Below, piece by piece: positions 3,741 to 29,297 of a DNA stretch of 64,000 nucleotides (the first letter of the stretch is position 1; the number at the start of each line of letters is the position of its first letter). The notes under the pieces were generated by a model that was not told where the DNA came from, made no database searches, and saw only the letters and a list, made by a program, of their open reading frames with translations. The stretch is taken from IMG/VR virus record IMGVR_UViG_3300038499_000012, positions 1 through 64,000 of that record. The stretch is one strand, 5' to 3'. A program made the translations under genes and the position numbers. Source of the stretch: a virus. Lineage: Duplodnaviria; Heunggongvirae; Uroviricota; Caudoviricetes.

Positions 3741-3746
3741 ACTACC

Positions 3747-4193
3747 GTGGGCGGAGAAGTACTTCTTGTCTTGGAAAAGGGAGAGGTGCATAAGCTTAGA
3801 AGATTTTTCGACATCAATCCAACAGTCTTCATAGAAGGTGATGATGGTATCTATTCTGTGGAAGCACCTACAAAAGGCGACGGATGTTGGATCGAGTTCA
3901 GAGGAGGAAATAAAGTTCAGGTAGGCTACCAAATATTTGACTTATGCTCAGAATGGGCCTTGGCTGTAGCCTGTGGCATCAGGGATAATTTCAAAGTCTT
4001 AAAAGGTGGTTGGGACTCAGTTGGGTATTGCAAAGATTTTTTCACTACCCATCCATTCAGGGCCAAGATAAGAGTGCTGCAGAGATTCCTGAAAGAAAAA
4101 CCCAATGCCGCTTCATTAGAATCCATAAAAGACTACAGAAAATACAAAAAAATGTATACCAAAAGAGTAGAAGAAATATTCAGAAGCGTATAA
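3747..4193 (+). CDS. hypothetical protein
   Basis: ORF. Confidence 0.3.
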   Translation: MGGEVLLVLEKGEVHKLRRFFDINPTVFIEGDDGIYSVEAPTKGDGCWIEFRGGNKVQVGYQIFDLCSEWALAVACGIRDNFKVLKGGWDSVGYCKDFFTTHPFRAKIRVLQRFLKEKPNAASLESIKDYRKYKKMYTKRVEEIFRSV

Positions 4194-4209
4194 AGAAAGA
4201 GAGTGATCT

Positions 4210-4884
4210 ATGGAACTTATGAAATCCCTGATCTGTGACTGGCATAATGCCTTCTTCACAGCAAATATTGTGTTCTGGATCATTTATCTGTTCATTACAC
4301 TCGTCGGAGGCTCGGACGGGTCAGACGTAAGCCACGATACAGACATGGATGGACACTTATTCTCAGGACACGATGTTCATCACGATGTCAGTCATGACGG
4401 GCACCCCAACATTACCAGTAATTTCCTGAACTTTTTAGGTATCGGACGATGCCCCATGAGTATCGTCTTCATGATCATGGGCATAAGTTTTGGATTCACA
4501 GGACTTGTGTGCAATACCGTCTTTTCATTCTTACGAATCATTCCAGCAGGCCTCTACTTCTTTCTATCCGCAATCATAGCTCTGATAGTATCCATGATCA
4601 TAACCAGCGCCTGCTCCCGGGTCGTAGCCAAGATAATGCCTAAGAAAGGAACCACAGCCATCGAACTCAGTAGTCTTGTAGGCCGATACGGAGAATCCTC
4701 AATCACCATAGACAGTAAAAGCGGCCGTGCTCGCGTCCAGGATCAGTATGGAACACTGCACAACATCTATTGCCGTATATCAAAAGATGATCAACCCATT
4801 CCACCTAACACAGAAATACTGATATTGCTTCGTGATGAAGAAAATGTCTTTGTTGTTACCAAAAAGCCCGGCTATCAAGCATAG
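4210..4884 (+). CDS. NfeD/YqiJ-like inner-membrane protein
   Basis: Multi-TM N-terminus plus OB-fold-like C-terminus. NFLNFLGIGRCPMSIVFMI... and ...GTLHNIYCRISKDD... resemble E. coli YqiJ. Sits directly upstream of the flotillin gene, as in the yqiJK pair. Confidence 0.5.
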   Translation: MELMKSLICDWHNAFFTANIVFWIIYLFITLVGGSDGSDVSHDTDMDGHLFSGHDVHHDVSHDGHPNITSNFLNFLGIGRCPMSIVFMIMGISFGFTGLVCNTVFSFLRIIPAGLYFFLSAIIALIVSMIITSACSRVVAKIMPKKGTTAIELSSLVGRYGESSITIDSKSGRARVQDQYGTLHNIYCRISKDDQPIPPNTEILILLRDEENVFVVTKKPGYQA

Positions 4885-4922
4885 GGCCCCTATATCCACA
4901 TACCACATAAAAGGAGTCTTGG

Positions 4923-14312: not shown

Positions 14313-14345
14313 GGGTAGGATAGTCTGGCATACAAATTTCGAATT

Positions 14346-14404
14346 TCCCCCGTATAATAAAAGTGAATGCAGATCTTGACACGAATCCTTTTTAGTGGTA
14401 TATT
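14346..14404 (+). promoter_or_regulatory. tandem promoters upstream of the cas operon
   Basis: A cccccGTATAATAA motif at ~14346-14360. A sigma70-like TTGACA-N17-TATATT at ~14376-14404. Both lie ~70-130 nt upstream of the first cas gene. Confidence 0.35.
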
Positions 14405-14476
14405 AATCTCTGCCAGGCTATATTCGAGGGTAAAATAGACTTAAGGACGCCATATCAGGTAACCCAAGGAGAAGAT

Positions 14477-16342
14477 ATGATACAAAACGAAATCGACTTC
14501 TGCAGAAAAATTGTTGACCTTGCTGATGCAATCAAATTCCATACCTATTCCGTTCCTGCCGTGACCAAATCCAAACTGAATCCCAAGGGTAAAAAGGCAA
14601 AGCAGAAGGTTTTTCCGGCCTACCGTGCAATTCTCCAACCTGATGGACTTACCTTGTTGCCCCAGCAATATCGTAACGAGAACGTCTTAGAACATGCCTA
14701 CGCCCTTCAATACCGAAACTGTCCAGCCGATACCTCAGAATCCCGAGCAATCTACGGCTCAGATATCCGATTGGAAGTTCGAAAGAAGAAAGAGATCTGG
14801 GTCCGAAATCTTGAAACTCCGCTACTCAATAGCATAGTCTCTTCAGAACTCAGGACCATCAAAAATGCCCTAGCTCTGAGTTCTAAACGGATCCTGGAAT
14901 TCTACCAAAAACGAATGGATGAGTTCACCAATAGGGACCAGAACGGCAACACCCTAGACGATAACGAAGACATCGTATGCGGAATCTTCCTACACATAGA
15001 CTGTTCAATCCTTGGTTACGAACATTGGTACGAGATCCCCGGTGTACTTTCCGCTTCAGATACAGCCGAAATCATGAGGATCACCAACGAAGTTGGTGAA
15101 AAGAAGAAAGAGGCCGCATTTTTGGCCGTACCTGGGGAAGAATGCTATTCACTAGTCAAAAGTCTTCTCAATACGGTTGCATCCGGGGATGAGTCCTCAG
15201 ACAACCAGTTTCAGGATTTTGATTTGGCCGCACGACACAAATCATTCTCGTTAACGTCAGACGATAGACGAATCGTCGCTTTCTATTGGTCAAAAACGAT
15301 GAACATGCTCCGTGTTTCTATTCCCAAGACAAAAGGAGAATATTTCTTCAGAGTTGTGCCGTGCGGTGATTTCAGTCCTATGAATGCCCAAATGTTTATT
15401 GATAACCAAAAAGCATTCAGGGGCAAGTTTGATACCCAAGAGAAAGCCGAAAGTGGGGTATCAGAAGAGGACGATAATATCGAAATTATGCCTGACGAGC
15501 CTATTGATGGGTACGATAAAAAGATCTACAACATGGCCCAACAGGCCCCCTCGGGAATCACCTCGTTCGATATAACCCTTATGCACCGGGAATCCCATGG
15601 ACAGACAAATGTCTCAGAACTATCCAGACTCTACAGAAGTTCGTTCTGCCGGCAACTCAAACGTATCGAGGCGGTCTCGGAAGAAGTCACAAAAAAATAC
15701 AAGTGCACTTGGGAACCCCAGATATGGTCCGCACTGAATACCATCTACTCTCGGTGTGAAAAACGATATCTCAATATCATCGGGCAGATTTTTATGAAGT
15801 TATGGTCCGGAAGCTACAGAGGAATAGCTTCCCTTAAAGAACTTTTTATTGACGGAATACAATACAACATTCGCAATTCGGAAGGGCCTGGTGAATACGC
15901 CCTTCGTGTGGCGTACTTATTCTTGAAAAAACTCAACACAACGGAGGAGCAGATGGATGAAAAATCTTACCGTCTAGGAGAACTCTGTGCCGAGTTCTGC
16001 TGGCCCTTGATCTATCAGATCGGAAGTTTTGATAAGCAGTATTCAGGGTACATCACAAGGAAAGTCAAAAGTGTTGATGAGGTCACTGAGTTCATTGTTT
16101 TCTCCGAGGGAAAACTGATCCTGCATGCAGGTGAAATGATGTATGCCACTGGAAAAGGAGGTCAATTTCCTATCGGAGTAGTTCCAGATACAAGCTACTA
16201 CGCACTGGAAGCTCGAAAGCTCATCAAGGAAGGAATCGAAAAGTTTGATGCGCTTTCCTTTGCCGACGGATACTACTTCATGCGTGGTAACAAATTGTAC
16301 ACTTCCAAAAAAGGAGGCCAGAGTGAAGAATCAAGAGGTTAA
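14477..16342 (+). CDS. putative Cas8-like large subunit (divergent; possibly encodes Cas11 from an internal start)
   Basis: First gene of the cas operon, 621 aa, immediately upstream of cas7 with overlap. I see no recognisable motif; the assignment is positional only. Confidence 0.35.
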   Translation: MIQNEIDFCRKIVDLADAIKFHTYSVPAVTKSKLNPKGKKAKQKVFPAYRAILQPDGLTLLPQQYRNENVLEHAYALQYRNCPADTSESRAIYGSDIRLEVRKKKEIWVRNLETPLLNSIVSSELRTIKNALALSSKRILEFYQKRMDEFTNRDQNGNTLDDNEDIVCGIFLHIDCSILGYEHWYEIPGVLSASDTAEIMRITNEVGEKKKEAAFLAVPGEECYSLVKSLLNTVASGDESSDNQFQDFDLAARHKSFSLTSDDRRIVAFYWSKTMNMLRVSIPKTKGEYFFRVVPCGDFSPMNAQMFIDNQKAFRGKFDTQEKAESGVSEEDDNIEIMPDEPIDGYDKKIYNMAQQAPSGITSFDITLMHRESHGQTNVSELSRLYRSSFCRQLKRIEAVSEEVTKKYKCTWEPQIWSALNTIYSRCEKRYLNIIGQIFMKLWSGSYRGIASLKELFIDGIQYNIRNSEGPGEYALRVAYLFLKKLNTTEEQMDEKSYRLGELCAEFCWPLIYQIGSFDKQYSGYITRKVKSVDEVTEFIVFSEGKLILHAGEMMYATGKGGQFPIGVVPDTSYYALEARKLIKEGIEKFDALSFADGYYFMRGNKLYTSKKGGQSEESRG

Positions 16343-17309
16343 GCAGGTCGAGGTCGAGACCAATGGCGTTAAGAGGGCGGATCTTCTGATTCTGTGGACC
16401 AGCAGAAATTGCATCGTGAACGGTGATCCCTGGACAGGAGAGCAGCGCTATGATGAAGCCACAGGCAGACCTCTGTGCTCTGATGTCAGGCTTAAGGCCT
16501 TCGCCAGATGGTATGCAGACCACATACACCTTTTCGAACCCGGCCATCCTGCTCTGGATGTGTTTTTCAAGGATTTCACGCAGAGTGATATAGCTCTAGC
16601 CAGGGCCGAGAAAGAAGGGGCATCAGGAGCTTCCGTTCGGGTGCGTATGCTCAAGGCCAAGTACAAACCGGAAGAGGACTTGAAGACTCTGGTTCTCAAG
16701 TGCCTCGATTCTCGTGGTTTCGGAAACGTCGTCACGGAGAAGAAGACTCCGGTGCATCTCACAGGCCCGATCCAGTTCGAGCAGCTCAATCCGACTCTGC
16801 ATCAAGTGAAGCTGATGGAAAACCAGAATACCTGTCATCTTCCATCAGATATCAAGAACAATGCAGGAGCAATAGCCACCAGCAGCCTGGTTCCCTTCAG
16901 CATCAACCAAGTGGTCGGCGGGGTCTATTCAATCCTCGCTCTCGAAACCGGCCTGACGGAAGATGATGTCATCCTCATTCTTCGGTGCCTGTGGCGGGGA
17001 ATAAACTGTTACAAGAGCCGGAGCAAGATGGGGCAGAATTCAAGACTGATCTTGAAGATCAACTATCAAGATCTGGCAACAGCAACCGCCGATCTGAATA
17101 CCTTGGTCACACTCAAGAATTCAGAAGACAAAGGCCTTCGCAGAATAGACCAAGCCGTATGGGATTTTTCGAGGCTGGACAATCTCATGAAGGACCCCAA
17201 TGTCGTAACGGTTGAGTATCGTGCGGATTCCTTCATGAAGCCGGTACTCCTGGGTGCCATCTCGAAAGATACGGTTTCTAAAATGGTCGAGTTGCAAGGT
17301 CTCTGGTAA
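16323..17309 (+). CDS. cas7: Cas7 (Cascade backbone subunit; DevR/Csd2/Csh2-like N-terminal motif)
   Basis: GTG start 5 nt after aaggagg; track start 16245 is probably too far upstream. N-terminal NGDPwtgeqRyDeaTGrplcSDVrLKafaRwY resembles the NGDPDxxNxPRiDpeTGxGLVTDVCLKRKIRNY motif of I-B/I-C Cas7 and is also similar to CasC. Confidence 0.55.
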   Translation: MKNQEVKQVEVETNGVKRADLLILWTSRNCIVNGDPWTGEQRYDEATGRPLCSDVRLKAFARWYADHIHLFEPGHPALDVFFKDFTQSDIALARAEKEGASGASVRVRMLKAKYKPEEDLKTLVLKCLDSRGFGNVVTEKKTPVHLTGPIQFEQLNPTLHQVKLMENQNTCHLPSDIKNNAGAIATSSLVPFSINQVVGGVYSILALETGLTEDDVILILRCLWRGINCYKSRSKMGQNSRLILKINYQDLATATADLNTLVTLKNSEDKGLRRIDQAVWDFSRLDNLMKDPNVVTVEYRADSFMKPVLLGAISKDTVSKMVELQGLW

Positions 17310-17638
17310 GAAAAGAGAAGGTAAAGACCTTACACGGAAAAACGTGTAGGGTCTTACCAACTCATAGGAGTACTCGGTCAATTACCACCAGCACAAGGCT
17401 GGAGGCTTGTCCTTCCAAATTTCGTCCAGAGAACGATGACTCTAATGAGTCATAACGGAGGACTATAAGCCAATTGACTGTGGCTCATTATCATACAGCA
17501 TGCTGTATGATAATCACTTGTACTCAGAACTCTGTGAGTACTCGCTACAGTTCCTAAGATACATTATGGAAGAGAGCACGAGTCATTACTCGCTTCCTCC
17601 GCCACCACAAGGGTAGCGGTTTCCGCTCGTGAGGTTTT
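17310..17638 (+). other. structured non-coding spacer inside the cas operon (hairpins and a perfect 28-bp palindrome)
   Basis: No ORF. Imperfect ~16-bp hairpin with 6-nt loop (ggtaaagaccttacacg/cgtgtagggtcttacc) at ~17320-17358. atgactcTAATgagtcat at ~17436-17453. Perfect 28-bp palindrome attatcatacagca|tgctgtatgataat at ~17487-17514. gtactcagAACTctgtgagtac at ~17520-17541. Stem ggaag...cgagtCATTactcg...cttcc at ~17568-17610. Confidence 0.5.
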
Positions 17639-18385
17639 ATGAAAGCCGTAACCATACGAATTTCTGGTAGCCGGGCGCATTTCAAGCGGCCAAATACCAA
17701 CAACAATCCATGTACTTATGCCGTTATTCACAAACCAGCGCTTTTTGGAATCATGGGCGCTGTCTGTGGAATTCAGAGGGCAGAAATGGCATCCCTCTAT
17801 CCTAAGCTGTGCAGTGAAAATAAATCTGACGGCATAAAGATGGCCCTTCGAGTTCTAAATCCTATTTCAAAAGAGGCACATGGATTCACAAAACGAAATG
17901 TCACTCCAGTTCCTGAGCGCCAAGGGGATTTGAAGGGCTTTAAGAACAATTCCCGTGGCAGAAGGTTCTGTGAAGTCCTTCGAGATCCTTCTTATGAGGT
18001 CACACTGGGATCTCAGAATCCTCAATTCGTTGAGATATTATCGACCTTCAAAAATCAGATACTAGCCAATAGGTCGATTTATCCACACTACCTCGGCAGT
18101 ATTAACTGCATGTGTCAGCTGGCCTTCATATCGGACTCAGAAGTATCGGAAGAAAAAAACGGTGAGTTCTCTACCCGACACATTGTTACGAAAACAGGCC
18201 ATGAAATTTCTGACACAGGAGATATGGATATTCTGTGTGAGAATATCCCGATCGCAGAAGATGCCAATAGGAGATACACAGCCACTGCCGATGTCTATTG
18301 TTTCTGGGAAGGCCTACTGGACGTAAAAGGTTCTTATCAGACCATTTCCAACCAAACCGGAGATGCCACAGCATGTTTCATCTAA
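17639..18385 (+). CDS. cas5: Cas5
   Basis: N-terminal ISGSRAHFKRP...ALFGIMGAVCGIQR resembles E. coli CasD (LAGPMQAWGQP...LLGLLGACLGIQR) and the AhFrxP signature of Cas5 proteins. Confidence 0.6.
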   Translation: MKAVTIRISGSRAHFKRPNTNNNPCTYAVIHKPALFGIMGAVCGIQRAEMASLYPKLCSENKSDGIKMALRVLNPISKEAHGFTKRNVTPVPERQGDLKGFKNNSRGRRFCEVLRDPSYEVTLGSQNPQFVEILSTFKNQILANRSIYPHYLGSINCMCQLAFISDSEVSEEKNGEFSTRHIVTKTGHEISDTGDMDILCENIPIAEDANRRYTATADVYCFWEGLLDVKGSYQTISNQTGDATACFI

Positions 18386-20961
18386 GCTCCTATACGCTCA
18401 ACTGCATCTCGCACCCAGGCAAAAAACTCCTTCGTCATTCACAAGGTACGACGAAGGGACTCCTTGATCTATTGCCCAAAATAGCACGCCACTTAAAAAA
18501 AGTTGCTGCTGTGGTGGGCAATTTTCATGATACAGGAAAATTCCTTAATCGATATTTTCAGGACAAGCTTAGAGGAATCCTTTATAAAGACAAGTACACA
18601 CATCACTCCTACCTATCCATGATGTCCCTTTTGGGTTTTTTGCTTCCCGGTAATCATCAATACCGCTCCTACAGGGATATGGTAATAGCCCTGATATGCA
18701 TCATTAAACACCACGGAGGCATTCCGAATCTGGATAAACTAATCAACGACAAAGAACTAAAACAAATGCGGGATTACATCACAGAAGTCCAGTCAAAAGG
18801 ACTTCTTCCAGATATAACGGAATTCAGGCATCAAATAGGATTCGATGGAGACACGAAGCCTGTGTCAGAAATCAAGGACAGCTTGATACGATGTATTTTT
18901 TCTAGGGCAGATAAAATAAACAGCATTTTTACTCGAATCAGCGAGGAAGATCGATTGGGATTTTGGCTTGATTTGAGAATGGTGTTCTCCTGCTTGGTGG
19001 CTGCGGACAAGCAGGATGCAGGAGATCACAAACTTGATATAAATGACAAATTCCTTCGAAAGAAATTTCATAAAGGTATTAAGGCTTACATTGATAATCT
19101 TTCTAAAGTAGTAGCGAAAACGGAGAACGCTAGGAAACTGAACCTTATCCGAACCGAGATGAGAAAAGTGGCGGTACAGAACCTGATAGAAGTCGTAGCC
19201 GCCAATCCTGATAGGCGTCTATTTCAGCTCACATACCCGACAGGAGCGGGAAAAACGGTCATTCTGTACTGCTGTGGCTCGGTGATTCAACTGAAGAAAG
19301 GTTCCCGAAGAATAATATATTCCGTACCTTTTCTTTCTATAACGGATCAGGTTGCTACCATCATAGAGGAAATCTTCCCAAACGAGGAAGATAACATTCA
19401 GCGCATTGATTCCAAGGCCCAACCGGATGAAGATTTGGACTATGACCTGACATCAAGCGGTGATGATGTATCACCCTTGATGGAGGCGCTAAAAAAGTTC
19501 ATAAAAAACTTCATAAAGTTTACACTTAAAAAAGATATCAGTGACATCTCCGCAAACAAAATTCTTAAACAAGAACTCCAGGAGATTTGCTTCTCTTACC
19601 CATTGATCACAACTACATTCGTGCAGATGTTCCAAACTCTGACTACAGCCTCCAACCGTGGACTGATGAGATACAACGGGCTCTCTGGGTGTATATTTCT
19701 GATAGATGAAATTCAGGCCCTCCCACCGAGGCTCTACAACTTTTTAGTGGCACTTCTGGATGCCTTCTGCCGGCGCTTTGATAGCTATGCAGTTATATCA
19801 TCCGCAACAATGCCTTATTTCGATATACCGACGAAGTCAAAAGAAGGCCAGAAAATGTTTCCTGGCTACATGCCCCCTATCGAAATAGGAGACATCAGCT
19901 ACTTTGATGACCCCATCTTCAATCGGTATGATATCGTCGGTATAAAGACCAAGATGACCGTCGATAGTATTGCAGAGAAAATCCGCAAAGAGGAAAAATC
20001 CACTCTAGTGATATTGAACACGAAGAAGGATGCCAAAAGAGTCTATAAAAGAGTCAAAAAGACCGGAGAGGATGCAATTCTGCTTACAAGTTTGAATTGT
20101 GACCGGCAGGATATTTTAGACCTGTGTCAAAAAAAGTTAGATAACCATGAGCGCTTCTTTCTCATATCTACAAATCTCATAGAAGCTGGTGTGGATATCG
20201 ACTTCTGCACAGTATATCGAGAAATAGCCCCCCTGCCGAATATCATTCAGAGCGCAGGTCGAGGTAATAGAAATGGCAATCTCTACCCAGATAGAGCAAC
20301 CATTTATGTTTTTGATTTGATCGACGACAAGGGACGATCCCGATCAAAGTGTATATACAATGGCGATGTCGATGGACCATCCTTAGAATATGCTAAAAAA
20401 ATATTCCTTCTATCCGACAGGATTGCCACACCTGAATTAGAACTCCTGTCCCTTCAAAAGGCTTTCTTTATGGAACAGGGAGAAAATCTCTATTTTGGAA
20501 CTTGGGATTTCTCGATGCCTATCGAGGATGAGGAAGAAGATGAAGAAGAATACAAAACAAAACCAAAAAGGATGAACTTCGTAGATCTCATCAATGGATT
20601 CCAGTATGGAGACATTGGAAGATTTAGGCTGATTCCTGAATGCCGCTACGGAGCGCAGGTTCAATTCTATGTTCCAGAATCGGACGAGGATAAGAGATTT
20701 GAGAAGTTGGTGGAGTATCAGGCCGCGATTCAACAATCGGAAGAAGAGGACGTCCCTATTAAGACAAGGCTGGCTAATAAAAGGAAACTCCATCTACACC
20801 TTCGGGAAATGATGCCTCGGGTAGTTCAGATGAATCTTGGCGAAAAGGACCCTCCTCTTTCAGAGTTAGCAGAGTATGAAGGTATGGTGAGCCATTTGTA
20901 TAAACTAAAGCTGAAATACTACAGTAAGGAATACGGTATAACCTGGGAGGAACAACAATGA
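18373..20961 (+). CDS. cas3: Cas3 (HD nuclease + SF2 helicase)
   Basis: HD motif (VVGNFHDTGKF). Walker A YPTGAGKT. DExQ box LIDEIQALP. SAT motif SATMP. Helicase C-terminus QSAGRGNR. Start taken as the Met overlapping the cas5 stop. Confidence 0.8.
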   Translation: MFHLSSYTLNCISHPGKKLLRHSQGTTKGLLDLLPKIARHLKKVAAVVGNFHDTGKFLNRYFQDKLRGILYKDKYTHHSYLSMMSLLGFLLPGNHQYRSYRDMVIALICIIKHHGGIPNLDKLINDKELKQMRDYITEVQSKGLLPDITEFRHQIGFDGDTKPVSEIKDSLIRCIFSRADKINSIFTRISEEDRLGFWLDLRMVFSCLVAADKQDAGDHKLDINDKFLRKKFHKGIKAYIDNLSKVVAKTENARKLNLIRTEMRKVAVQNLIEVVAANPDRRLFQLTYPTGAGKTVILYCCGSVIQLKKGSRRIIYSVPFLSITDQVATIIEEIFPNEEDNIQRIDSKAQPDEDLDYDLTSSGDDVSPLMEALKKFIKNFIKFTLKKDISDISANKILKQELQEICFSYPLITTTFVQMFQTLTTASNRGLMRYNGLSGCIFLIDEIQALPPRLYNFLVALLDAFCRRFDSYAVISSATMPYFDIPTKSKEGQKMFPGYMPPIEIGDISYFDDPIFNRYDIVGIKTKMTVDSIAEKIRKEEKSTLVILNTKKDAKRVYKRVKKTGEDAILLTSLNCDRQDILDLCQKKLDNHERFFLISTNLIEAGVDIDFCTVYREIAPLPNIIQSAGRGNRNGNLYPDRATIYVFDLIDDKGRSRSKCIYNGDVDGPSLEYAKKIFLLSDRIATPELELLSLQKAFFMEQGENLYFGTWDFSMPIEDEEEDEEEYKTKPKRMNFVDLINGFQYGDIGRFRLIPECRYGAQVQFYVPESDEDKRFEKLVEYQAAIQQSEEEDVPIKTRLANKRKLHLHLREMMPRVVQMNLGEKDPPLSELAEYEGMVSHLYKLKLKYYSKEYGITWEEQQ

Positions 20962-21482
20962 AAGCATTTATTGTCGAGGGCGTCACATTAGGAGAAGACA
21001 GTTATACCAAGCATCAGCAGATTGCCGACCTGATTGATAGCAAAAATACTCGATTCCATGAAAGAGAAGACGGTTCCATCGTTCTTCTCTCAGAAACAAT
21101 GCCTGAGGGATCCAAATACACGGCCGTTGGAATGTCTTATTCTAAGGGTGAGATTCTTTCTTTCTCTATCAGAGCTTGTGTCTCAAAACGGTCAGGGGAT
21201 AAAGAAATTCCAATAACCAATATGACAGAGATAGTCAATTGGATAACCAGAAAGGCCAGAGAAAATGGTTTTGTTATCAACTTTTTTGACAATATTGAAG
21301 GCCCTTGTGTCAGAGATGTGACCAAGCCTGGATTTGTTTTCAAAATCAGTACCGTAGATTTTGCCGGCAACCTTACAGTCCTTGACAAGGACTTATTCGA
21401 CCGGGCCTTGAGAACCGGCATTGGAAGAAAAAAAGCTTTTGGCTGTGGAGTTCTCTGTGTTACGCGTAGTACAGATGTTTGA
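20958..21482 (+). CDS. cas6e: Cas6e (CasE) crRNA endoribonuclease
   Basis: C-terminal G-rich loop GIGRKKAFGCGVLCV matches E. coli CasE GIGPAKSMGCGLLSL. ~175-200 aa. ATGA overlap with cas3. Confidence 0.65.
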   Translation: MKAFIVEGVTLGEDSYTKHQQIADLIDSKNTRFHEREDGSIVLLSETMPEGSKYTAVGMSYSKGEILSFSIRACVSKRSGDKEIPITNMTEIVNWITRKARENGFVINFFDNIEGPCVRDVTKPGFVFKISTVDFAGNLTVLDKDLFDRALRTGIGRKKAFGCGVLCVTRSTDV

Positions 21483-21638
21483 TTTCCCGCCCACGCGGGA
21501 GTTTAATAATGAGACGCACTACTGTGCAGGAAGATCTTTCCCGCGTGACGCGGGAGTTGAATGTATAGAGTGTCGAGAACAGATGCAGCGTCATGATCTT
21601 TCCCGCATCACGCGGGGGTTGAATTAAGAGATTATTAA
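21483..21638 (+). CRISPR. mini CRISPR array (3 repeat-like units, 2 spacers) between cas6e and cas1
   Basis: Units tttcccgcccacgcgggagtttaat, ctttcccgcgtgacgcgggagttgaat and ctttcccgcatcacgcgggggttgaat, separated by spacers of ~28 and ~35 nt. Confidence 0.6.
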
Positions 21639-22508
21639 ATGATCTACACAGATTTAAGTGGCCGCCTACCTTTTGTCTATGTAGAAATGGGAAAGCTTAG
21701 GGTATCAGGAGCTTCCCTTGTTTTTGTCAGTGAATCCTCTGTGATTGCTATCCCCGTAGGTAGGATAGCTGCCGTATTCCTTGGACCTGGAATTTCTGTT
21801 ACGGACAGGGCTGTTCATTTGGCCGCTACTGCCGGAAGTATGCTTCTATGGGTAGGTGAGGGAATTACCAAGTGCTACGCAGTGTTACCTACACACCATC
21901 AATCCTCAAAGAATCTTTTATCCCAAATTGAGCTCCTCACCAAACATAAGACTAAAATCTTAAAACGATACACACTGCTTAGGTTTGGAAAAAAACTGCT
22001 GGCTTGGGAACGGCTTAATGAAAATAAGATACGAGGGATAGAGGGCAGCTTCATGAGAAAGGTATATGTAGAATGTGCTAAAAAATTCGGTATTCCCTAC
22101 GGAGGTCGATCCAAAGAGGGGTCCTGGGAAAACAATTCGGTCTATAATAAAGCCATCTCTATATGTAATTCTTACTTATACGGCATGGCTACAGCGGTTT
22201 TGATTGCCTTGGGTTACTCCCCAGCTCTTGGAATTCTACATAATGGAGACTCCTTCTCATTGTCCTTTGATATTGCCGACCTTTATAAACACAAGTTTTC
22301 GATACCTTTGGCATTTGAAGCGTCAAAAAAAGTCTTGGGATCGGATAACATCAGAATAGAAAAAGAAATCAGGATCATGGCTTTAGAAAAAATGAAGGGC
22401 ACTAATTTCGTTAAAGCTATGGTAGAAGATATTCAGGAAATATTCGATGACGGTATTCATCACGAAAAGAATATCAACGAGGACGAGGCGACTTCTGTCA
22501 GCTTATAA
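21639..22508 (+). CDS. cas1: Cas1 (type I-E-like integrase)
   Basis: VGRIAAVFLGPGISVTDRAVHLAATAGSMLLWVGEG aligns closely with E. coli YgbT VGSVACIMLEPGTRVSHAAVRLAAQVGTLLVWVGEA. GIEGSFMRKVY and YGMATAVLIALGYSPALGILHNG are also conserved. Confidence 0.85.
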   Translation: MIYTDLSGRLPFVYVEMGKLRVSGASLVFVSESSVIAIPVGRIAAVFLGPGISVTDRAVHLAATAGSMLLWVGEGITKCYAVLPTHHQSSKNLLSQIELLTKHKTKILKRYTLLRFGKKLLAWERLNENKIRGIEGSFMRKVYVECAKKFGIPYGGRSKEGSWENNSVYNKAISICNSYLYGMATAVLIALGYSPALGILHNGDSFSLSFDIADLYKHKFSIPLAFEASKKVLGSDNIRIEKEIRIMALEKMKGTNFVKAMVEDIQEIFDDGIHHEKNINEDEATSVSL

Positions 22509-22734
22509 TGCTGAGGTATCTTTAGGGGTTTACGTAGGATACCACAACGAAGGCGTGTATATGCGTATTCTTAAATGGTTGAGAAAAAATATAAAGGGGA
22601 ATGAAAAAATACTTATATTGCGTCCGGATAAATCCTGGATTGGCTTCTCAGATGAGTATTTTAATTGGGAATCTCAAGCGGTGTACTTAGATGGTGTTAA
22701 GTTATATAAACCTCTTCATTATTCTTCCGAATAA
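22447..22734 (+). CDS. cas2: Cas2 (type I-E-like)
   Basis: MTVFITKRISTRTRRLLSAYNAEVSLGVYVG aligns with E. coli YgbF ...[22 protein letters not shown]. Overlaps the cas1 3' end. Confidence 0.65.
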   Translation: MTVFITKRISTRTRRLLSAYNAEVSLGVYVGYHNEGVYMRILKWLRKNIKGNEKILILRPDKSWIGFSDEYFNWESQAVYLDGVKLYKPLHYSSE

Positions 22735-22797
22735 CCCATGTTTTAGTGCCCGTTCTTTGAAATAACACATTGATGTAAAAGGACATACCCTTTAAGG

Positions 22798-25700
22798 GTC
22801 TTTCCCGCGTCACGCGGGGGTTGAATATTACATTGTCGGGGTATTCGGGGTAGTCGGATGTCTTTCCCGCGTCACGCGGGGGTTGAATGAGTATGCCCCT
22901 TATACCGTAGGAGGAGACCGGTCTTTCCCGCGTCACGCGGGGGTTGAATTGGACTACGTATACGATACCTGTAGGTCTGTCTGGTCTTTCCCGCGTCACG
23001 CGGGGGTTGAATTCCGGTAGATTTGAGATCGTGTATTAGTTGGGGGTCTTTCCCGCGTCACGCGGGGGTTGAATCCCGAGTCCCTGTCTGTCGTAATATT
23101 GTGATCCGTCTTTCCCGCGTCACGCGGGGGTTGAATTATGGGAATAGGTGGGCCATCTATAGTAGTCTGGTCTTTCCCGCGTCACGCGGGGGTTGAATAA
23201 GAACTCTATAGCAGCGTAAGGAACTTTTGTTTTGTCTTTCCCGCGTCACGCGGGGGTTGAATTATCTACCCGACCGGGAATTCTTCCTCGGTCAGGTCTT
23301 TCCCGCGTCACGCGGGGGTTGAATCTTATCAAGTATGTACACAGGGTATGTTGTGGAGTCTTTCCCGCGTCACGCGGGGGTTGAATAATCGTCTGACCGT
23401 GCACGGACGCCCTCGGTTTGGTCTTTCCCGCGTCACGCGGGGGTTGAATGCCTGTGCACGTTATGGATGCAGACTGAGCGGCGTCTTTCCCGCGTCACGC
23501 GGGGGTTGAATATACTCCATGATCGCAGAGTGCATAGCACTGTTGTCTTTCCCGCGTCACGCGGGGGTTGAATCCACTAAATTGATCTATGATCACAGGG
23601 GGAAGTCTTTCCCGCGTCACGCGGGGGTTGAATGCCTGTGCACGTTATGGATGCAGACTGAGCGGCGTCTTTCCCGCGTCACGCGGGGGTTGAATGATGT
23701 GGATTTGAAGAAACTCGATATACCCGATTGTCTTTCCCGCGTCACGCGGGGGTTGAATCATCTTGTCCCCGTTTTTTGTACCGTCATAGTTGTCTTTCCC
23801 GCGTGACGCGGGAGTTGAATCATGGTAACGTCACGTCCAGACCGTGTCGCAGCGTCTTTCCCGCGTGACGCGGGAGTTGAATTCCCCGTGTGGTCAAAGT
23901 GGCTGGTAAAGTTGTCTGTCTTTCCCGCGTGACGCGGGAGTTGAATACAATCAGCTCAGTTCCGAACCGGCAGACGATCGTCTTTCCCGCGTGACGCGGG
24001 AATTGAATTTCCCGAAGTAGTTGGACAGAACTTCGTCCATGGTCTTTCCCGCGTGACGCGGGAGTTGAATATTCCCCCAATCCTCCGTTGTCCAACCCAG
24101 TTTGAGTCTTTCCCGCGTGACGCGGGAGTTGAATCCTACTTCAAACACGGACTTTTCAGCTGGTGGTCTTTCCCGCGTCACGCGGGGGTTGAATATGGAC
24201 GAGGCCTATGTTGATATCTTCAGCAGGTCTTTCCCGCGTGACGCGGGAGTTGAATCATTTCTCCGATACGCCTATGGTCAGATTTATTGTCTTTCCCGCC
24301 TACGCGGGAGTTGAATTGTTTACGATTTAAGAAAAGAGGGCTATTTGGAACATGTCTTTCCCGCCCACGCGGGAGTTGAATACCAAGACACGAATAGAAA
24401 TGGTGTTTCAGTCTTTCCCGCGTGACGCGGGAGTTGAATACTCTCGATTCGTGGTTTTATGCCAGACTATCTGGTCTTTCCCGCGTCACGCGGGGGTTGA
24501 ATCTATTATTCGTTGCTCTCGCAGGAAAGTCTTTCCCGCATCACGCGGGAGTTGAATGTGGTCAAGCGGGTTCTCACCGGATTCTGCGTCGTCTTTCCCG
24601 CCCACGCGGGAGTTGAATCAGCGGAATGCTAACCGGGGCAATATCCATTCCGTCTTTCCCGCGTGACGCGGGAGTTGAATAATCGGCTGTGTAGGAGGGA
24701 GGAGAGTGTGAAGTCTTTCCCGCATCACGCGGGAGTTGAATCCTGTACGATGAGTTCTTCTCCAAGGCGAAGTCTTTCCCGCGTCACGCGGGAGTTGAAT
24801 CTCATCAACAGCGTCAACACGTACCATCAACAGCGTCAACACGTACCGTGGAACGTCTTTCCCGCCCACGCGGGAGTTGAATTGGGGGTATCTATCAACG
24901 GGTCCCCCGTTTTGTTGTCTTTCCCACGTGACGCGGGAGTTGAATTATCATCTGCTTGTATGCCTCAAGGCAGACCTGGTCTTTCCCGCGTAGGCGGGAG
25001 TTGAATAATCCACTACGCAGACGAGATCATTAGTGATAGTGTCTTTCCCGCCTACGCGGGAGTTGAATACCGCCATCATCCGACGCCCGAACCTAGTGGT
25101 GTCTTTCCCGCGTGACGCGGGAGTTGAATTAAACACGGATCTTCGGCGACGACATTACCCAGTCTTTCCCGCACCACGCGGGAGTTGAATATTTCGAACC
25201 TACCTAGGGATAGTAATGAGGTGGTCTTTCCCGCCAACGCGGGAGTTGAATTCTCGAGGCGCTCTTGAAGGTTGTCAACCCGCAGTCTTTCCCGCATCAC
25301 GCGGGAGTTGAATAGGCATCCGAATAACGAAACCAGAAACGTTCTGTCTTTCCCGCCTACGCGGGAGTTGAATTAACCGATTGACTTGTCAAGTGCTAGT
25401 AGTGATGTCTTTCCCGCCTACGCGGGAGTTGAATTACACTCCATATGATCCGGAACCAATCCAGAAGAGTCTTTCCCGCCTACGCGGGAGTTGAATCATA
25501 TCTCCATAAACATTCGTCAAGAAGTTTGGTGGTCTTTCCCGCACTACGCGGGAGTTGAATCATCATGTCGTTCTCGCCAAGGAATGAACGGAATCTTTCC
25601 CGCACCACGCGGGAGTTGAATTGTAGGCCGTCCTACGCGGTTTGGTGGGCACTGCGTCTTTCCCGCCCACGCGGGAGTTGAATAGGCATCCGAATAACGA

Positions 25701-26369
25701 AACCAGAAACGTTCTGTCTTTCCCGCGTCACGCGGGAGTTGAATACAATGTCATCTCAGGGTGGTGTACTGGCGAATCTGTCTTTCCCGCGTGACGCGGG
25801 AGTTGAATCCTTCTGGACATACATGCAGAGACCCAACAAAGGGGTCTTTCCCGCGTGACGCGGGAGTTGAATCCCGTACCCTCGTTCCACGCTATTGACA
25901 CGCCGGTCTTTCCCGCGTGACGCGGGAGTTGAATTTCCTCGGTCGGGAACGTCGTTTCCAGGTCGTCAAGGTCTTTCCCGCCTACGCGGGAGTTGAATAC
26001 GACTATGGGAAGCAAATCAAGGATGTCGTAATCTTTCCCGCATCACGCGGGAGTTGAATGTGGTAGGACCCTGTATCTCAGGCTGTATCTTAGGCCGAGA
26101 AGTCTTTCCCGCCCACGCGGGAGTTGAATCACCGGCGTACAGATGGGTGCTGCCATGCAGCAGTCTTTCCCGCGTAGGCGGGAGTTAAATTATTCGTTTG
26201 TGGACCATGCCTTGACCTAGTCTTTCCCGCGTCACGCGGGAGTTGAATAGCTGCCGCTTCTTTTGCAGCTCTCACCGTCGGTCTTTCCCGCCCACGCGGG
26301 AGTTGAATCACACCCTGCTGGAAGAACGTATGGTCCGTCACTGTCTTTCCCGCGTAGGCGGGAGTTGAA
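22798..26369 (+). CRISPR. CRISPR array, 58 repeats (28-29 nt) and 57 spacers (mostly 32-33 nt); leader on the cas2 side
   Basis: Consensus GTCTTTCCCGCGTCACGCGGGGGTTGAAT with hairpin cccgcg/cgcggg followed by an 8-nt handle (I-E style). Repeats 1-16 are identical; repeats 17-58 carry ...GCGGGAGTTGAAT with many loop variants (TGAC, CTAC, CCAC, ATCAC, ACCAC, CAAC, GTAGG). Degenerate repeat remnants extend to ~26500. Confidence 0.95.
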
Positions 26370-26563
26370 TAGTTGAATAGTTGAATCTAAGAGTAATGGA
26401 AGAATTATTTTGTAGTTACTTTTCCCATCTACATAGAATGGGAGTTAAATAGGCTATATTCGAGGGATCAAATTTCCCGCGTAAGCGGGAGCATTTTATT
26501 ATGTTTTTTGGATACGGGTGTATAATAAGAACGGGTATAAGGAGTATTTCCCGCGTCAAACGG

Positions 26564-27517: not shown

Positions 27518-27940
27518 ATGAAATATTTACTTGTTTTGGTGGGGATTGGGCTTCTTCACTTGGCTTGTGGTGATGCGGGGAATCCTGTAACAGGCACCAA
27601 AGACACTCTATACGTCAGGGATACCCTGATCATAAGGGATTCTTTGACTATTCGTGATTCTATGACCATAAAAGACACATTGGTGATTAAAGACACTCTG
27701 GTCAAAAAGGATACCATAAGCAGACGGGATACGCTAATTACCAGAGATACGATGTTCCGCAAAGACACCATATTCAGCAAAGATACGGTGTTCAGCAAAG
27801 ACACGGTATTCAGTAAGGACACCTTAATCCGAAGACACCCTGGTAAGAAAAGATACCCTAATCCGAAGGGATACATTGGTAAGGAGAGACACCCTAATCC
27901 GAAGAGATACATTGGTTTACATAGATTCTGTTTTGATTAG
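27518..27940 (+). CDS. lipoprotein with hexapeptide (K/R)DT(L/V)x(I/V) tandem repeats
   Basis: Signal peptide and lipobox LLHLAC. About 17 tandem 18-bp DNA repeats encode RDTLII/RDSLTI/KDTLVI... Confidence 0.4.
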   Translation: MKYLLVLVGIGLLHLACGDAGNPVTGTKDTLYVRDTLIIRDSLTIRDSMTIKDTLVIKDTLVKKDTISRRDTLITRDTMFRKDTIFSKDTVFSKDTVFSKDTLIRRHPGKKRYPNPKGYIGKERHPNPKRYIGLHRFCFD

Positions 27941-29297
27941 GCAGACTTGGTCCAAACTTGTTGATAGCATAAAAACCGCTTCTTATTTGATAGGTCTAAG
28001 AACAAACAATGAAGTTATCCTTATAGGAAGTGCTTCCGCGATAAACTCGACGACTCTTATTACCAATGCTCATGTATGGATGGGTGTTTTGAGTTCTTAC
28101 ATCCTTTTTAAACAGCAGGGAACGGTGGTCATTCCTATTGCGGTCCGAAATGGAAGTACATCAACAGGAACTAATGCCTATGCTTTAGACATAGGTGGTT
28201 TTCATGCGGATTACTCAAGAACTACCGTCTTCACTCCTGACATCGGATTTTTCAAATTAAACCAACCCCTACTCTCAACCAGTATTCTTGTACCGATAAA
28301 TGACACCATCCGGAATATCAGAACAGGCCAAGAAGTCGGTACTATAGGATATCCAGGAGAAACTTCTGACCGAGTTAATTACGTAGCTTACGCTACTTTC
28401 AAAAATGGTACTATATCCGCATTGACGCCTTTTGATACTTACCTAACAGCCAATACGTTTAATACCTTGGTGGTACAACATAATTTCAATACAACTGGAG
28501 GAACGTCAGGAAGTCCTATTTTTGATAACAAAGGACGCCTGATTGCCATCAATAATAGCGGAGCTGTTACCAATGTGTGGAACGATGCAACAGGCTCTTT
28601 CACATCTATCCCCACGGGGTCTATCGGGTATGGAATACGATCTGATGTTGTGAATGATATGTTCACGAGCGGCAGGTACGTGCTTGATACCATATCTACG
28701 TGGTACATTCCGAATCTCTATTCATTTTACCCGGGTAGTCGAATATGTCTTCGTAATGGAACACGATCGGTCTACATGAACACGACCATGTCTGTTGCTC
28801 AGGCATCAGCAAACGTGCTTTTTTCTAAGGCTGCACCTGATTATGTCTATTCAGATGGATCCCTGTTCTACACGGATAACGCTTCGTATGAAATACAGCT
28901 GATAAAAGGTGCATCTCTTCCTGATCATGTTTGGTCTATATTAATCATGGCTCCTGTAAGTACCATATACCAACCATCTTTCCGGGACTATTGGGGCATC
29001 ACCATAGGAACATCAAGGTCGTTCATTCTTGAATCTTATGGATATGGTTACACAAATGCTTTTTCGATCGACAGCTCAGTGTATTACTATAACTACTCTA
29101 CTAAGGGTATTGGTTTTGGATTCAAACAGAACGAATCAGACTGGAATTGTGATGCCATACAAATAGCAGTACCAGGTACTTTGGGGAAAACGACAGCCGG
29201 AACTTCTCATGAAATATTCGCAAATCCATCAATCAGACGTATTTCACCAAAAACGGTTGAAAAATATCCATTACCAATCAAAGTCATAACTAAATGA
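27876..29297 (+). CDS. trypsin-like (S1) serine protease domain protein
   Basis: TNAHVW (His), GGTSGSPIFD (Ser, GDSGSP-like) and ...INNSGAV. The N-terminus overlaps the upstream repeat region in another frame, so the start is uncertain. Confidence 0.4.
   Translation: MVRRDTLIRRDTLVYIDSVLIRQTWSKLVDSIKTASYLIGLRTNNEVILIGSASAINSTTLITNAHVWMGVLSSYILFKQQGTVVIPIAVRNGSTSTGTNAYALDIGGFHADYSRTTVFTPDIGFFKLNQPLLSTSILVPINDTIRNIRTGQEVGTIGYPGETSDRVNYVAYATFKNGTISALTPFDTYLTANTFNTLVVQHNFNTTGGTSGSPIFDNKGRLIAINNSGAVTNVWNDATGSFTSIPTGSIGYGIRSDVVNDMFTSGRYVLDTISTWYIPNLYSFYPGSRICLRNGTRSVYMNTTMSVAQASANVLFSKAAPDYVYSDGSLFYTDNASYEIQLIKGASLPDHVWSILIMAPVSTIYQPSFRDYWGITIGTSRSFILESYGYGYTNAFSIDSSVYYYNYSTKGIGFGFKQNESDWNCDAIQIAVPGTLGKTTAGTSHEIFANPSIRRISPKTVEKYPLPIKVITK

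What the first reader, a model, noticed from the sequence alone, without database searches (positions are those of the whole stretch)
21483..21638. Three-repeat mini-array wedged between cas6e and cas1
Three repeat-like units with two spacers (~28 and ~35 nt) occupy the cas6e-cas1 intergenic region. The flanking units are slightly degenerate (tttaat, and a missing first G). This placement is unusual. It could be a remnant of recombination between two cas modules, which would fit the hybrid I-B/I-E nature. It could also be a functional mini-array or a Cas6e autoregulatory decoy.
Basis: seen in the sequence. Interest (0 to 1): 0.5.

Follow-up and report, generated by a model that had tools for sequence, protein, structure and literature searches.

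The report
Small CRISPR array inside phage cas operon
A real three-repeat, two-spacer CRISPR mini-array sits between cas6e and cas1 of a phage-borne type I system; it is a leaderless second array confined to one phage lineage, an unusual placement of a known kind of element rather than a new mechanism.

Summary
The units are 21480-21507, 21534-21562 and 21596-21624, and the spacers are 26 and 33 nt. Unit 1 overlaps the cas6e stop codon. Unit 3 ends 14 nt before the cas1 ATG.

All three units keep the Cas6e hairpin. A model built from the main-array repeats scores them 28.9, 48.3 and 45.3 bits, against 41.5-52.1 for the main array.

The window is a phage genome carrying a hybrid system (I-B-like cas7/cas5, cas3, I-E-like cas6e/cas1/cas2). 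More distant relatives with the same gene order (Cas1 41-54% identical) have cas6e abutting cas1, so the mini-array is not a scar of the hybridisation. Contigs from two other sequencing runs, 91-97% identical, do carry repeat units at this junction. Unit 1 is conserved there, but the content after it differs, and one variant holds a 121-aa gene.

The mini-array has no leader motif, and its spacers have no convincing target.

Best reading: a secondary array fragment co-transcribed with the cas operon and cut by Cas6e. This would give two extra crRNAs and split the effector mRNA from the cas1-cas2 mRNA.

The locus's convincing autoregulatory RNA lies elsewhere. A degenerate repeat pair at the main-array trailer encloses a spacer with a 16-nt match to the cas8 promoter.

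The parts
20958..21482 (+). cas6e (174 aa). Its TGA stop at 21480-21482 forms the first 3 nt of repeat unit 1.
   Evidence: Matches PF08798 at 4e-18 and TIGR01907 at 2.4e-14. His19 and the C-terminal G-rich loop are invariant in an alignment with clade and canonical Cas6e proteins. The C-terminal domain aligns to T. thermophilus Cse3 structures.
21480..21507 (+). Repeat unit U1, 28 nt and degenerate: TGA in place of GTC, and handle AGTTTAAT instead of AGTTGAAT.
   Evidence: Model score 28.9 bits, E 2e-6, covering model positions 4-29. The hairpin is intact at -12.3 kcal/mol. The nearest main-array variant is the 28-nt CCCA-loop type, at 4 differences. The stop-codon overlap and the GTTTAAT handle are both conserved in L131 and L132.
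21508..21533 (+). Spacer 1, 26 nt: AATGAGACGCACTACTGTGCAGGAAG.
   Evidence: Defined. Identical in strain contig L131. No target found in the window, 9.4 kb beyond it, IMG/VR or the related loci.
21534..21562 (+). Repeat unit U2, 29 nt. It differs from the GTGA-loop main-array variant only at position 1 (A for G).
   Evidence: Model score 48.3 bits. Edit distance 1 from the variant. Hairpin at -12.9 kcal/mol.
21563..21595 (+). Spacer 2, 33 nt: GTATAGAGTGTCGAGAACAGATGCAGCGTCATG.
   Evidence: Defined. Only chance-level hits in phage records (E = 4) and none in IMG/VR. Its first 12 nt match 27613-27602, but ordinary spacers reach the same length by chance. L131 has an unrelated 27-nt spacer in this position.
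21596..21624 (+). Repeat unit U3, 29 nt.
   Evidence: Model score 45.3 bits. One difference from the main-array repeat at 26031. Hairpin at -10.7 kcal/mol.
21625..21638 (+). Junction TAAGAGATTATTAA. It holds an AAGAG Shine-Dalgarno-like motif 7 nt before the cas1 ATG.
   Evidence: Read directly from the sequence. The identical junction follows the last repeat unit in L133 and L132.
21639..22508 (+). cas1, type I-E family.
   Evidence: TIGR03638 at 6.6e-67, above the curated cut-off.
14376..14404 (+). Promoter-like site upstream of cas8 (TTGACA-17-TATATT). It is the inferred source of the transcript that carries the mini-array.
   Evidence: Matches 11 of 12 consensus positions, with TG before the -10 hexamer. 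No + strand promoter-like site lies between 20800 and 23000.
22798..26370 (+). Main CRISPR array, 58 repeats in 15 sequence variants. Its repeats are the reference for the mini-array units.
26421..26491 (+). Context: a degenerate repeat pair at the array trailer enclosing a 21-nt spacer. This is the locus's candidate autoregulatory crRNA-like RNA.
   Evidence: The first 16 nt of the spacer are identical to 14415-14430, which starts 10 nt after the -10 hexamer of the cas8 promoter. The second degenerate repeat is a terminator-like hairpin followed by a T-rich run.

Best explanation
The feature is a small, leaderless secondary CRISPR array (repeat-spacer-repeat-spacer-repeat). It was inserted exactly into the normally closed cas6e/cas1 junction in the ancestor of one phage lineage, and repeat-mediated recombination has reshuffled it since.

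How it most likely works (all steps below are inferred, not shown):
1. It has no promoter or leader of its own, so it is transcribed as part of the cas operon mRNA that starts at the cas8 promoter.
2. Cas6e, encoded immediately upstream, binds the three hairpins and cuts 8 nt before each spacer.
3. This releases two crRNAs. One is canonical: a 33-nt spacer with an AGUUGAAU handle. One is atypical: a 26-nt spacer, about one 6-nt Cas7 step shorter, with the variant handle AGUUUAAU.
4. These crRNAs load into the phage's own Cascade like main-array crRNAs.
5. The same cuts separate the cas8-to-cas6e mRNA, which would end in a Cas6e-bound hairpin right after the cas6e stop codon, from the cas1-cas2 RNA. 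That RNA would start with an 8-nt handle followed by its own AAGAG ribosome-binding site.

Shown here: the units, their hairpins, their orientation, the absence of a leader, the absence of the element in distant relatives, and its presence with variable content in close strains. Whether the insertion is useful to the phage or merely tolerated is not decided by the data.
For: - **Repeat quality and hairpins.** The units score like main-array repeats and keep the hairpin.
- **Orientation and fit.** They lie in the same orientation as the cas genes and main array and exactly fill the gap from the cas6e stop codon to the cas1 ribosome-binding site.
- **No own transcription signals.** No + strand promoter-like site occurs in 20800-23000, and terminator-like sites there are at chance level. 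A strong promoter-like site lies upstream of cas8.
- **Cas6e looks active.** It keeps His19 and the G-rich loop.
- **No leader.** The clade's leader motifs (ATTGAT at -31 to -26, AGG at -3 to -1) are absent upstream of U1.
- **Origin from an existing array.** Each unit is closest to a different, trailer-side variant of the main array, which argues for a fragment of a heterogeneous array rather than duplication in place.
- **Distant relatives lack it.** Relatives with the same gene order have a cas6e-cas1 gap of 0-12 nt or an overlap.
- **Close strains have it.** L131 and L133 come from one other sequencing run and L132 from a second, at 91-97% nucleotide identity. They keep U1 and the last unit plus the TAAGAG junction but differ in between. 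The window and L131 diverge from the loop of U2 onwards.
- **Precedent.** A canonical I-E locus (L089) has its whole array between cas6e and cas1.
Against: - No transcript, cleavage or crRNA data exist.
- Neither spacer has an identifiable protospacer, so guide function is unproven.
- U1's handle mutation and the short spacer 1 may prevent loading of the first crRNA.
- Retention of U1 and the last unit in three variants could reflect selection for something other than guides. That would favour the RNA-processing rival below.
- The join between L131 and L133 is inferred from an overlap that lies within a repeat.
- The mechanism that placed an array fragment at this junction is unknown.
Confidence: 0.55

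Rival explanations
1. Selected RNA-processing or feedback element. On this reading the useful parts are the hairpins, not the spacers. Cas6e binding to U1, on its own stop codon, would feed back on cas6e translation or stabilise the effector mRNA. Cleavage at the last unit would insulate cas1-cas2 expression from effector expression.
For: - Only U1, with its stop-codon overlap and GTTTAAT handle, and the last unit plus the TAAGAGATTATTAA-ATG junction are retained in all three close variants. The interior is replaced, and in L132 it holds a 121-aa gene.
- The U1 hairpin starts 6 nt after the first base of the stop codon.
- From general knowledge: Cas6e stays bound to its product, and Cas6-family hairpins are used synthetically as intercistronic insulators.
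Against: - Distant relatives with the same gene order manage without it and keep cas6e and cas1 abutting or overlapping.
- Conservation of the stems among the variants is not statistically distinguishable from shared ancestry at 5-9% divergence.
- Recombination between direct repeats cannot remove the last repeat copy, so terminal units persist without any selection.
Confidence: 0.17
2. Regulatory crRNA-like RNA of the CreR/CreA/crlRNA type. One of the spacers would guide Cascade to a partially matching site and repress a gene without cleavage. The only candidate is spacer 2 acting on the lipoprotein/protease gene at 27518.
For: - U1 is degenerate and spacer 1 is short, as in described regulatory mini-arrays (PMC10120712; 10.1101/2023.03.10.532045).
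- The first 12 nt of spacer 2 pair with the coding strand at 27602-27613, 85 nt into a gene just downstream of the array.
- The 5' flank of that site (CTGAC) resembles the flank of the trailer element's target (CTGCC).
Against: - An ordinary main-array spacer also has a 12-nt 5'-anchored match in the window. About 0.46 such matches are expected among 61 spacers.
- The site lies inside an ORF, not at a promoter, and the PAM of this system could not be determined.
- Spacer 2 is replaced by an unrelated spacer in L131.
- Spacer 1 has no seed match longer than 8 nt in 73 kb of the phage genome.
- The locus already has a much better candidate regulator at the array trailer, with a 16-nt match at the cas8 promoter.
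Confidence: 0.1
3. Inert debris. On this reading it is a decaying array fragment that is transcribed but gives no working crRNA and has no effect on cas expression.
For: - It has no leader.
- No targets were found.
- U1 is degenerate.
- It is absent from the wider clade.
- L132 shows further decay of the second and last units and an unrelated gene inserted between them.
Against: - All seven differences from the nearest main-array variants fall outside the 5-bp core stem. The chance of this is about 0.05 if they were placed at random.
- U2 and U3 are indistinguishable from working repeats, so Cas6e would be expected to process them whether or not that is useful.
Confidence: 0.15
4. Assembly artefact, produced by mis-joining reads at CRISPR repeats.
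For: Metagenome assemblers do break and mis-join at repeats. Contigs L131 and L133 and the P0122 contig all end inside or just beside these repeats.
Against: - An independent ENA assembly is identical over 17958-23511.
- Two other sequencing runs give the same cas6e-repeat junction, with their own sequence differences.
- The spacers are unique and the repeat variants are specific to this site.
Confidence: 0.02

Closest known systems
Mini-arrays and standalone repeat-like sequences inside CRISPR-cas loci (Shmakov et al. 2023, PMC10120712)
   Same: It is a short run of repeat-like units with a spacer of normal size, lying in an intergenic region between cas genes. It lacks a leader and occurs sporadically rather than across a clade.
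   Different: That survey found mostly two-repeat arrays and only 12 cases with three or more repeats. The preferred sites were cas3-cas8 in I-E and around cas6 in I-B. The arrays proposed as regulators had a 5'-anchored match of at least 10 bp, with a PAM, at a cas promoter. Here there are three units between cas6e and cas1, co-oriented with the operon, and no such target.
CreR / CreA degenerate mini-CRISPRs that auto-repress cas promoters (Liu et al. 2023, 10.1101/2023.03.10.532045)
   Same: The first repeat is degenerate and the first spacer is shortened. The element lies in a type I locus.
   Different: CreR spacers share 11-15 nt or more with the cas promoter. Neither mini-array spacer does. 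In this window that description fits the trailer element at 26421-26491 instead, which has a 16-nt match at the cas8 promoter.
I-E loci with the array relocated inside the cas operon: the C. diphtheriae variant with the array between cas3 and cse1 (Sangal et al. 2013, as cited in PMC12231136), and locus L089 (Butyricicoccus MAG) found here
   Same: CRISPR repeats lie between cas genes in the same orientation. In L089 they lie exactly between cas6e and cas1.
   Different: Those are the locus's only, full-length arrays. L089 has 39 repeats with a 91-nt upstream region and no array after cas2. Here the element is a three-unit extra array alongside a 58-repeat array in the normal position.
Virus-borne mini-CRISPR arrays (Medvedeva et al. 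2019, PMC6858448)
   Same: It is a one- or two-spacer array carried by a virus genome.
   Different: According to that paper's abstract, such arrays are involved in conflicts between viruses; the cas content of those viruses was not checked here. This phage carries its own complete cas operon and a large array, and no target of the mini-array spacers was found.

Membership tests
CRISPR array (secondary array of this locus) | Two or more direct repeats matching the locus's own repeat, separated by unique spacers of normal length | tested here: met
   There are three units scoring 28.9, 48.3 and 45.3 bits against the main-array model, with spacers of 26 and 33 nt.
CRISPR array (secondary array of this locus) | The repeat keeps the hairpin recognised by the cognate Cas6 | tested here: met
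   All three units fold like the main repeat, at -10.7 to -12.9 kcal/mol. None of the differences from main-array variants falls in the core stem.
CRISPR array (secondary array of this locus) | A leader with the clade's conserved motifs next to the first repeat (needed for spacer acquisition) | tested here: not met
   Clade leaders share ATTGAT at -31 to -26 and AGG at -3 to -1. The sequence upstream of U1 is cas6e coding sequence and has neither motif.
CRISPR array (secondary array of this locus) | Spacer content differs between strains in a leader-proximal pattern | tested here: inconclusive
   Content does differ. However, the spacer shared by the window and L131 is the first one and the differing spacer is distal, the opposite of leader-end acquisition. 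This is better explained by recombination inside U2.
CRISPR array (secondary array of this locus) | Transcription and Cas6 processing into crRNAs | not testable with these tools
   No RNA data are available. Processing is inferred only from orientation, the lack of internal promoters or terminators and an intact Cas6e.
crlRNA / CreR / CreA regulatory mini-array | A 5'-anchored partial match of at least 10-11 nt between the spacer and a promoter region, flanked by the system's PAM | tested here: not met
   Spacer 1 has no seed match longer than 8 nt. Spacer 2 has a 12-nt match, but inside an ORF and no longer than matches of ordinary spacers. The PAM could not be established.
crlRNA / CreR / CreA regulatory mini-array | Spacer and target conserved among related genomes | tested here: inconclusive
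   Spacer 1 is identical in L131, but that has a probability of about 0.28 by descent alone at 4.8% divergence. It is replaced in L132. Spacer 2 is replaced in L131.
crlRNA / CreR / CreA regulatory mini-array | Degenerate flanking repeats that keep the 5' handle upstream and the hairpin downstream | tested here: inconclusive
   U1 is degenerate, but its handle carries a G-to-T change. U2 and U3 are essentially intact repeats.
Phage RNA anti-CRISPR (solitary repeat units mimicking host repeats; PMC10651486) | Repeat copies on a phage that mimic a host array and act without cognate phage cas genes | tested here: not met
   The units match the phage's own 58-repeat array and lie inside its own complete cas operon. 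The host's repeats are unknown.

The most novel reading that the evidence does not exclude
The cas6e-cas1 junction of this phage lineage may be a selected Cas6e-dependent RNA-processing cassette. A hairpin on the cas6e stop codon and a second hairpin 14 nt before the cas1 start would set the balance between interference and adaptation proteins and feed back on Cas6e. Whatever lies between the two hairpins would be released as a Cas6e-bounded RNA. That content is two spacers in the window, different spacers in L131, and a 121-aa zinc-ribbon gene in L132.
Probability: 0.13. Interest if true: 0.65.

Novelty: new member of a known kind. Interest (0 to 1): 0.33.

Why it matters
Extra mini-arrays inside cas loci are already known to be common, and some are regulators. 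This one is therefore mainly a well-documented example in an unusual position (cas6e-cas1), on a phage, in a hybrid I-B/I-E-like system seen only in metagenomes.

Its value is as a natural test case. A Cas6e substrate embedded in the cas mRNA itself can be used to ask whether Cas6 processing shapes cas gene expression. The three strain variants show how quickly such an element is reshuffled.

The analysis also redirects the autoregulation idea. The better candidate is the degenerate repeat pair at the array trailer, whose spacer matches the cas8 promoter.

Tried and rejected
- **Scar of the I-B/I-E hybridisation.** Rejected, because the hybrid gene order is shared by more distant relatives that lack the element.
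- **Close relatives in reference genomes or IMG/VR.** None found. The best Cas1 identity was 35%, and no array with this repeat occurs in IMG/VR.
- **Targets of the two spacers.** None found in IMG/VR by exact 18-mers, in 50,697 phage records by BLAST (E = 4, chance level), in the window, in 9.4 kb beyond it, or in the fetched loci.
- **PAM inference.** I tried main-array spacers and 185 spacers from relatives. Nothing exceeded 14-16-nt chance matches, and three leader-proximal spacers were absent from IMG/VR.
- **A 14-nt match between main-array spacer 24440 and 14319-14332.** Dropped as chance, because many equal matches appear in the locus set.
- **Similarity between the sequence after U3 and the main-array trailer.** Not significant in a first test (89 of 500 shuffles). 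It was only suggestive (p about 0.01) when the L133 version and real genomic windows were used. Kept as a hint, not evidence.
- **Rfam.** No family matches the region at the gathering or E-value thresholds.
- **The 68-aa ORF at 21421-21627 that spans the units.** No Pfam hit. It simply reads through the repeats and is treated as spurious.
- **Assembly artefact.** Rejected on independent assemblies and samples.

Full report
**1. The observation**

The region between the stop codon of the 174-aa ORF at 20958-21482 and the ATG at 21639 holds three copies of the repeat that builds the large array at 22798-26370. In the register of that array the units are:
- U1, 21480-21507: TGATTTCCCGCCCACGCGGGAGTTTAAT
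- U2, 21534-21562: ATCTTTCCCGCGTGACGCGGGAGTTGAAT
- U3, 21596-21624: ATCTTTCCCGCATCACGCGGGGGTTGAAT

The spacers are 26 nt and 33 nt.

A covariance model built from the 15 repeat variants of the main array scores the three units 28.9, 48.3 and 45.3 bits. Main-array repeats score 41.5-52.1 bits. On the + strand, the only other matches with E below 1 in the 64-kb window lie in the arrays and their trailer. A degenerate repeat pattern has zero expected matches in shuffles. Each unit folds into the same hairpin as the main repeat.

The flanking genes are cas6e and a type I-E cas1.

**2. Context**

The cas operon reads:
- an unassigned 621-aa large subunit
- an I-B-like cas7 and an I-B-like cas5
- cas3
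- cas6e, cas1e and cas2e

The main array of 58 repeats follows.

The window is a phage genome. It encodes rIIA and rIIB, collagen-repeat tail fibres, an M15 endolysin, a Dam methyltransferase, a TROVE protein, an RNA ligase and a tRNA.

Cas6e has no word-sharing homologue outside its own cluster. Cas1 has a distinct set of relatives at 41-54% identity, all from metagenomes. Nothing above 35% identity was found in one genome per species of GTDB or in IMG/VR.

The relatives share the hybrid gene order. Their repeats combine an I-E-like stem-loop with an ATTGAAT 3' end, reminiscent (from general knowledge, not tested here) of the ATTGAAA-type repeat ends of I-B/I-C systems.

**3. Distribution**

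*Distant relatives.* In every more distant relative that covers the junction (L002-L012, L021, L025, L123-L128), cas6e and cas1 are 0-12 nt apart or overlap. The mini-array is therefore not part of the hybrid architecture and not a scar of its origin.

*Canonical I-E loci.* Among 84 I-E-type loci with a detectable array, five have repeats within 400 nt upstream of cas1. At least one of these has the repeats between cas6e and cas1. That is L089, a Butyricicoccus MAG, whose only array of 39 repeats sits there.

*Close strains.* The 90%-identity cluster of Cas6e holds variants from other sequencing runs. Their contigs could be read.
- L131 is 95% identical to the window across cas3-cas6e. It has U1, the identical spacer 1, a U2 with a different loop and handle, an unrelated 27-nt spacer and a third unit.
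- L133 comes from the same run. It shows a last unit, two partial handle copies, and the same TAAGAGATTATTAA-ATG junction into cas1.
- L132 is 91-94% identical. It has U1, an unrelated 34-nt spacer and a degenerate second unit. About 400 nt of unique sequence follows, encoding a 121-124-aa zinc-ribbon ORF with a strong ribosome-binding site. Then come a degenerate last unit and the same junction into cas1.

So the element is ancestral to this closely related group of phages. Its two ends are retained and its interior is replaced. The window and L131 diverge from the loop of U2 onwards, which points to recombination within a repeat.

The identity of spacer 1 between the window and L131 is not evidence of constraint. 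Its probability is about 0.28 at 4.8% divergence.

**4. Anatomy that bears on function**

- U1 starts with the cas6e stop codon, and U3 ends 14 nt before the cas1 ATG. An AAGAG motif lies 7 nt upstream of that ATG.
- Clade leaders share ATTGAT at -31 to -26 and AGG at -3 to -1. Neither motif is present upstream of U1, so this is not an acquisition-competent array.
- Each unit is closest to a different main-array variant from the trailer side (4, 1 and 1 differences). None is closest to the leader-proximal variant that is currently being copied. This fits a fragment of a pre-existing heterogeneous array, not duplication in place.
- All seven differences avoid the core stem.
- No + strand promoter-like site lies between 20800 and 23000, and terminator-like sites there are at chance level. 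A TTGACA-17-TATATT site lies upstream of cas8.
- Cas6e keeps an invariant His19, aligned with the same residue in a canonical Cas6e, and the G-rich loop.

**5. Spacers**

Neither spacer has a target in IMG/VR, in phage records, in the window, in 9.4 kb beyond it or in any fetched locus.

The only lead is a 12-nt 5'-anchored match of spacer 2 to 27613-27602, inside a lipoprotein/protease gene. An ordinary main-array spacer has an equally long match, about 0.46 such matches are expected among 61 spacers, and spacer 2 is not conserved in L131. I do not regard this as a target.

The PAM could not be determined.

**6. Where the autoregulatory RNA seems to be**

The trailer of the main array ends in two degenerate repeats (26421-26450 and 26474-26491) enclosing a 21-nt spacer. 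The first 16 nt of that spacer are identical to 14415-14430, which starts 10 nt downstream of the -10 hexamer of the cas8 promoter.

About 0.002 such matches are expected by chance, and it was the top hit of all spacers against all sequences held. The first degenerate repeat keeps a near-intact handle (AGTTAAAT). The second keeps the hairpin and doubles as a terminator-like structure.

This is the pattern described for CreR and crlRNA autorepressors (PMC10120712; 10.1101/2023.03.10.532045). It makes an autoregulatory role for the cas6e-cas1 mini-array less necessary.

**7. Mechanism**

The best-supported reading is a passive but processed secondary array.
- It is transcribed within the cas operon RNA.
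- Cas6e cuts it at three hairpins.
- This gives one canonical crRNA and one short, variant-handle crRNA.
- The same cuts separate the effector mRNA from the cas1-cas2 RNA.

The units, their hairpins, their orientation, the lack of a leader and the distribution are shown. Transcription, cleavage, loading and any benefit are inferred.

The main rival is that the two retained end hairpins are selected as Cas6e-dependent processing or feedback sites. The strain comparison is compatible with this but does not demonstrate it. Terminal repeats persist under repeat-mediated recombination without any selection, and the wider clade does without them. A crlRNA-type role, inert debris and an assembly artefact are less likely, for the reasons given under each rival.

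**8. Comparison with known elements and verdict**

Mini-arrays in cas loci are common, at 12-19% of loci, but those with three or more repeats are rare (12 cases in the survey). They cluster at other junctions (PMC10120712). Arrays inside I-E operons are known, for example in C. diphtheriae between cas3 and cse1 (cited in PMC12231136), and in L089 here.

This is a new example of a known kind, in an unusual position and on a phage. Interest is modest. It would rise if Cas6e processing of the cas mRNA proved to be regulatory.

Noticed in passing
window 26421-26491 and 14415-14430: A degenerate repeat pair at the trailer of the main array encloses a 21-nt spacer. Its first 16 nt are identical to a site starting 10 nt downstream of the -10 hexamer of the cas8 promoter (TTGACA-17-TATATT, 14376-14404). 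The second degenerate repeat is also a terminator-like hairpin. It looks like a CreR/crlRNA-type autorepressor of the cas operon.
   Followed up: partly
window 1-64000 (cas locus 14477-26500): The window is a phage genome (rIIA/rIIB, tail fibres, endolysin, Dam methyltransferase, TROVE, RNA ligase). It carries a complete type I system mixing I-B-like cas7/cas5 with I-E-like cas6e/cas1/cas2. The repeats join an I-E-like hairpin to a TTGAAT handle. Relatives occur only in metagenomes, with none above 35% Cas1 identity in GTDB genomes or IMG/VR.
   Followed up: partly
window 17310-17638: A 329-nt gap between cas7 and cas5 (about 60 nt or less in the relatives examined) has no ORF, promoter or terminator call. 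It folds at -123.9 kcal/mol, z = -8.7 against shuffles, and has no Rfam match.
   Followed up: partly
L132 1811-2245: In a 91-94% identical strain, the interior of the cas6e-cas1 mini-array holds a 121-124-aa ORF. It has a GAGGAG ribosome-binding site and CxxxxC...CxxC motifs. Its last 8 codons and stop codon are supplied by the last repeat unit and the TAAGAG junction. It has no significant Pfam match (best E = 0.07) and no PHROG hit, and no copy in the window.
   Followed up: partly
window 22798-26370: The main array has 15 repeat variants. The 18 copies of the leader-proximal variant include a 16-repeat run at the leader end, followed by a mosaic of 28- and 29-nt loop variants that all keep the stem. 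It also holds two duplicated spacers (23450 = 23634; 25314 = 25684), a 54-nt spacer with an internal 22-nt tandem duplication (24801-24854) and a 42-nt spacer. A second assembly lacks 184 nt between the duplicated spacers.
   Followed up: partly
window 21526-21532 and 24521-24527: The only two 26-nt spacers of the locus, one in the mini-array and one in the main array, share GCAGGAA just before the next repeat and are otherwise unrelated. The longest exact common suffix among 1596 spacer pairs is 5 nt.
   Followed up: partly
window 26363-26386; L133 20-52: Partial tandem copies of the 8-nt handle follow the last repeat in two places: the window's main array (AGTTGAAT three times) and the L133 mini-array (GGAAGTTGAAC GGGAACTGAAT). 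Each is followed by TAAGAG...ATTATT. The similarity has p of about 0.01 against random genomic windows.
   Followed up: partly
window 6817, 14345, 27483, 60058: The motif TTCCCCCGTATAATAA occurs upstream of ORF 6837, upstream of the cas8 promoter and 20 nt before the ATG at 27518. There are 4 matches with up to 3 mismatches against 0.48 expected. It may be a phage promoter type.
   Followed up: partly
window 27518-29297: ORFs 27518-27940 and 27876-29297 look like one gene, encoding a lipoprotein signal peptide, KDTLxx hexapeptide repeats from 18-nt tandem repeats, and a trypsin-like protease. A frameshift near 27830 breaks it.
   Followed up: no
L089 2822-6903: A canonical I-E locus in a Butyricicoccus pullicaecorum MAG has its only array (39 repeats, 3528-5894) between cas6e and cas1. 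No array follows cas2.
   Followed up: partly
L002 3284-3423: A clade relative carries three degenerate repeat units with two spacers on the minus strand just upstream of cas8. This is another three-unit mini-array, at a different junction.
   Followed up: partly
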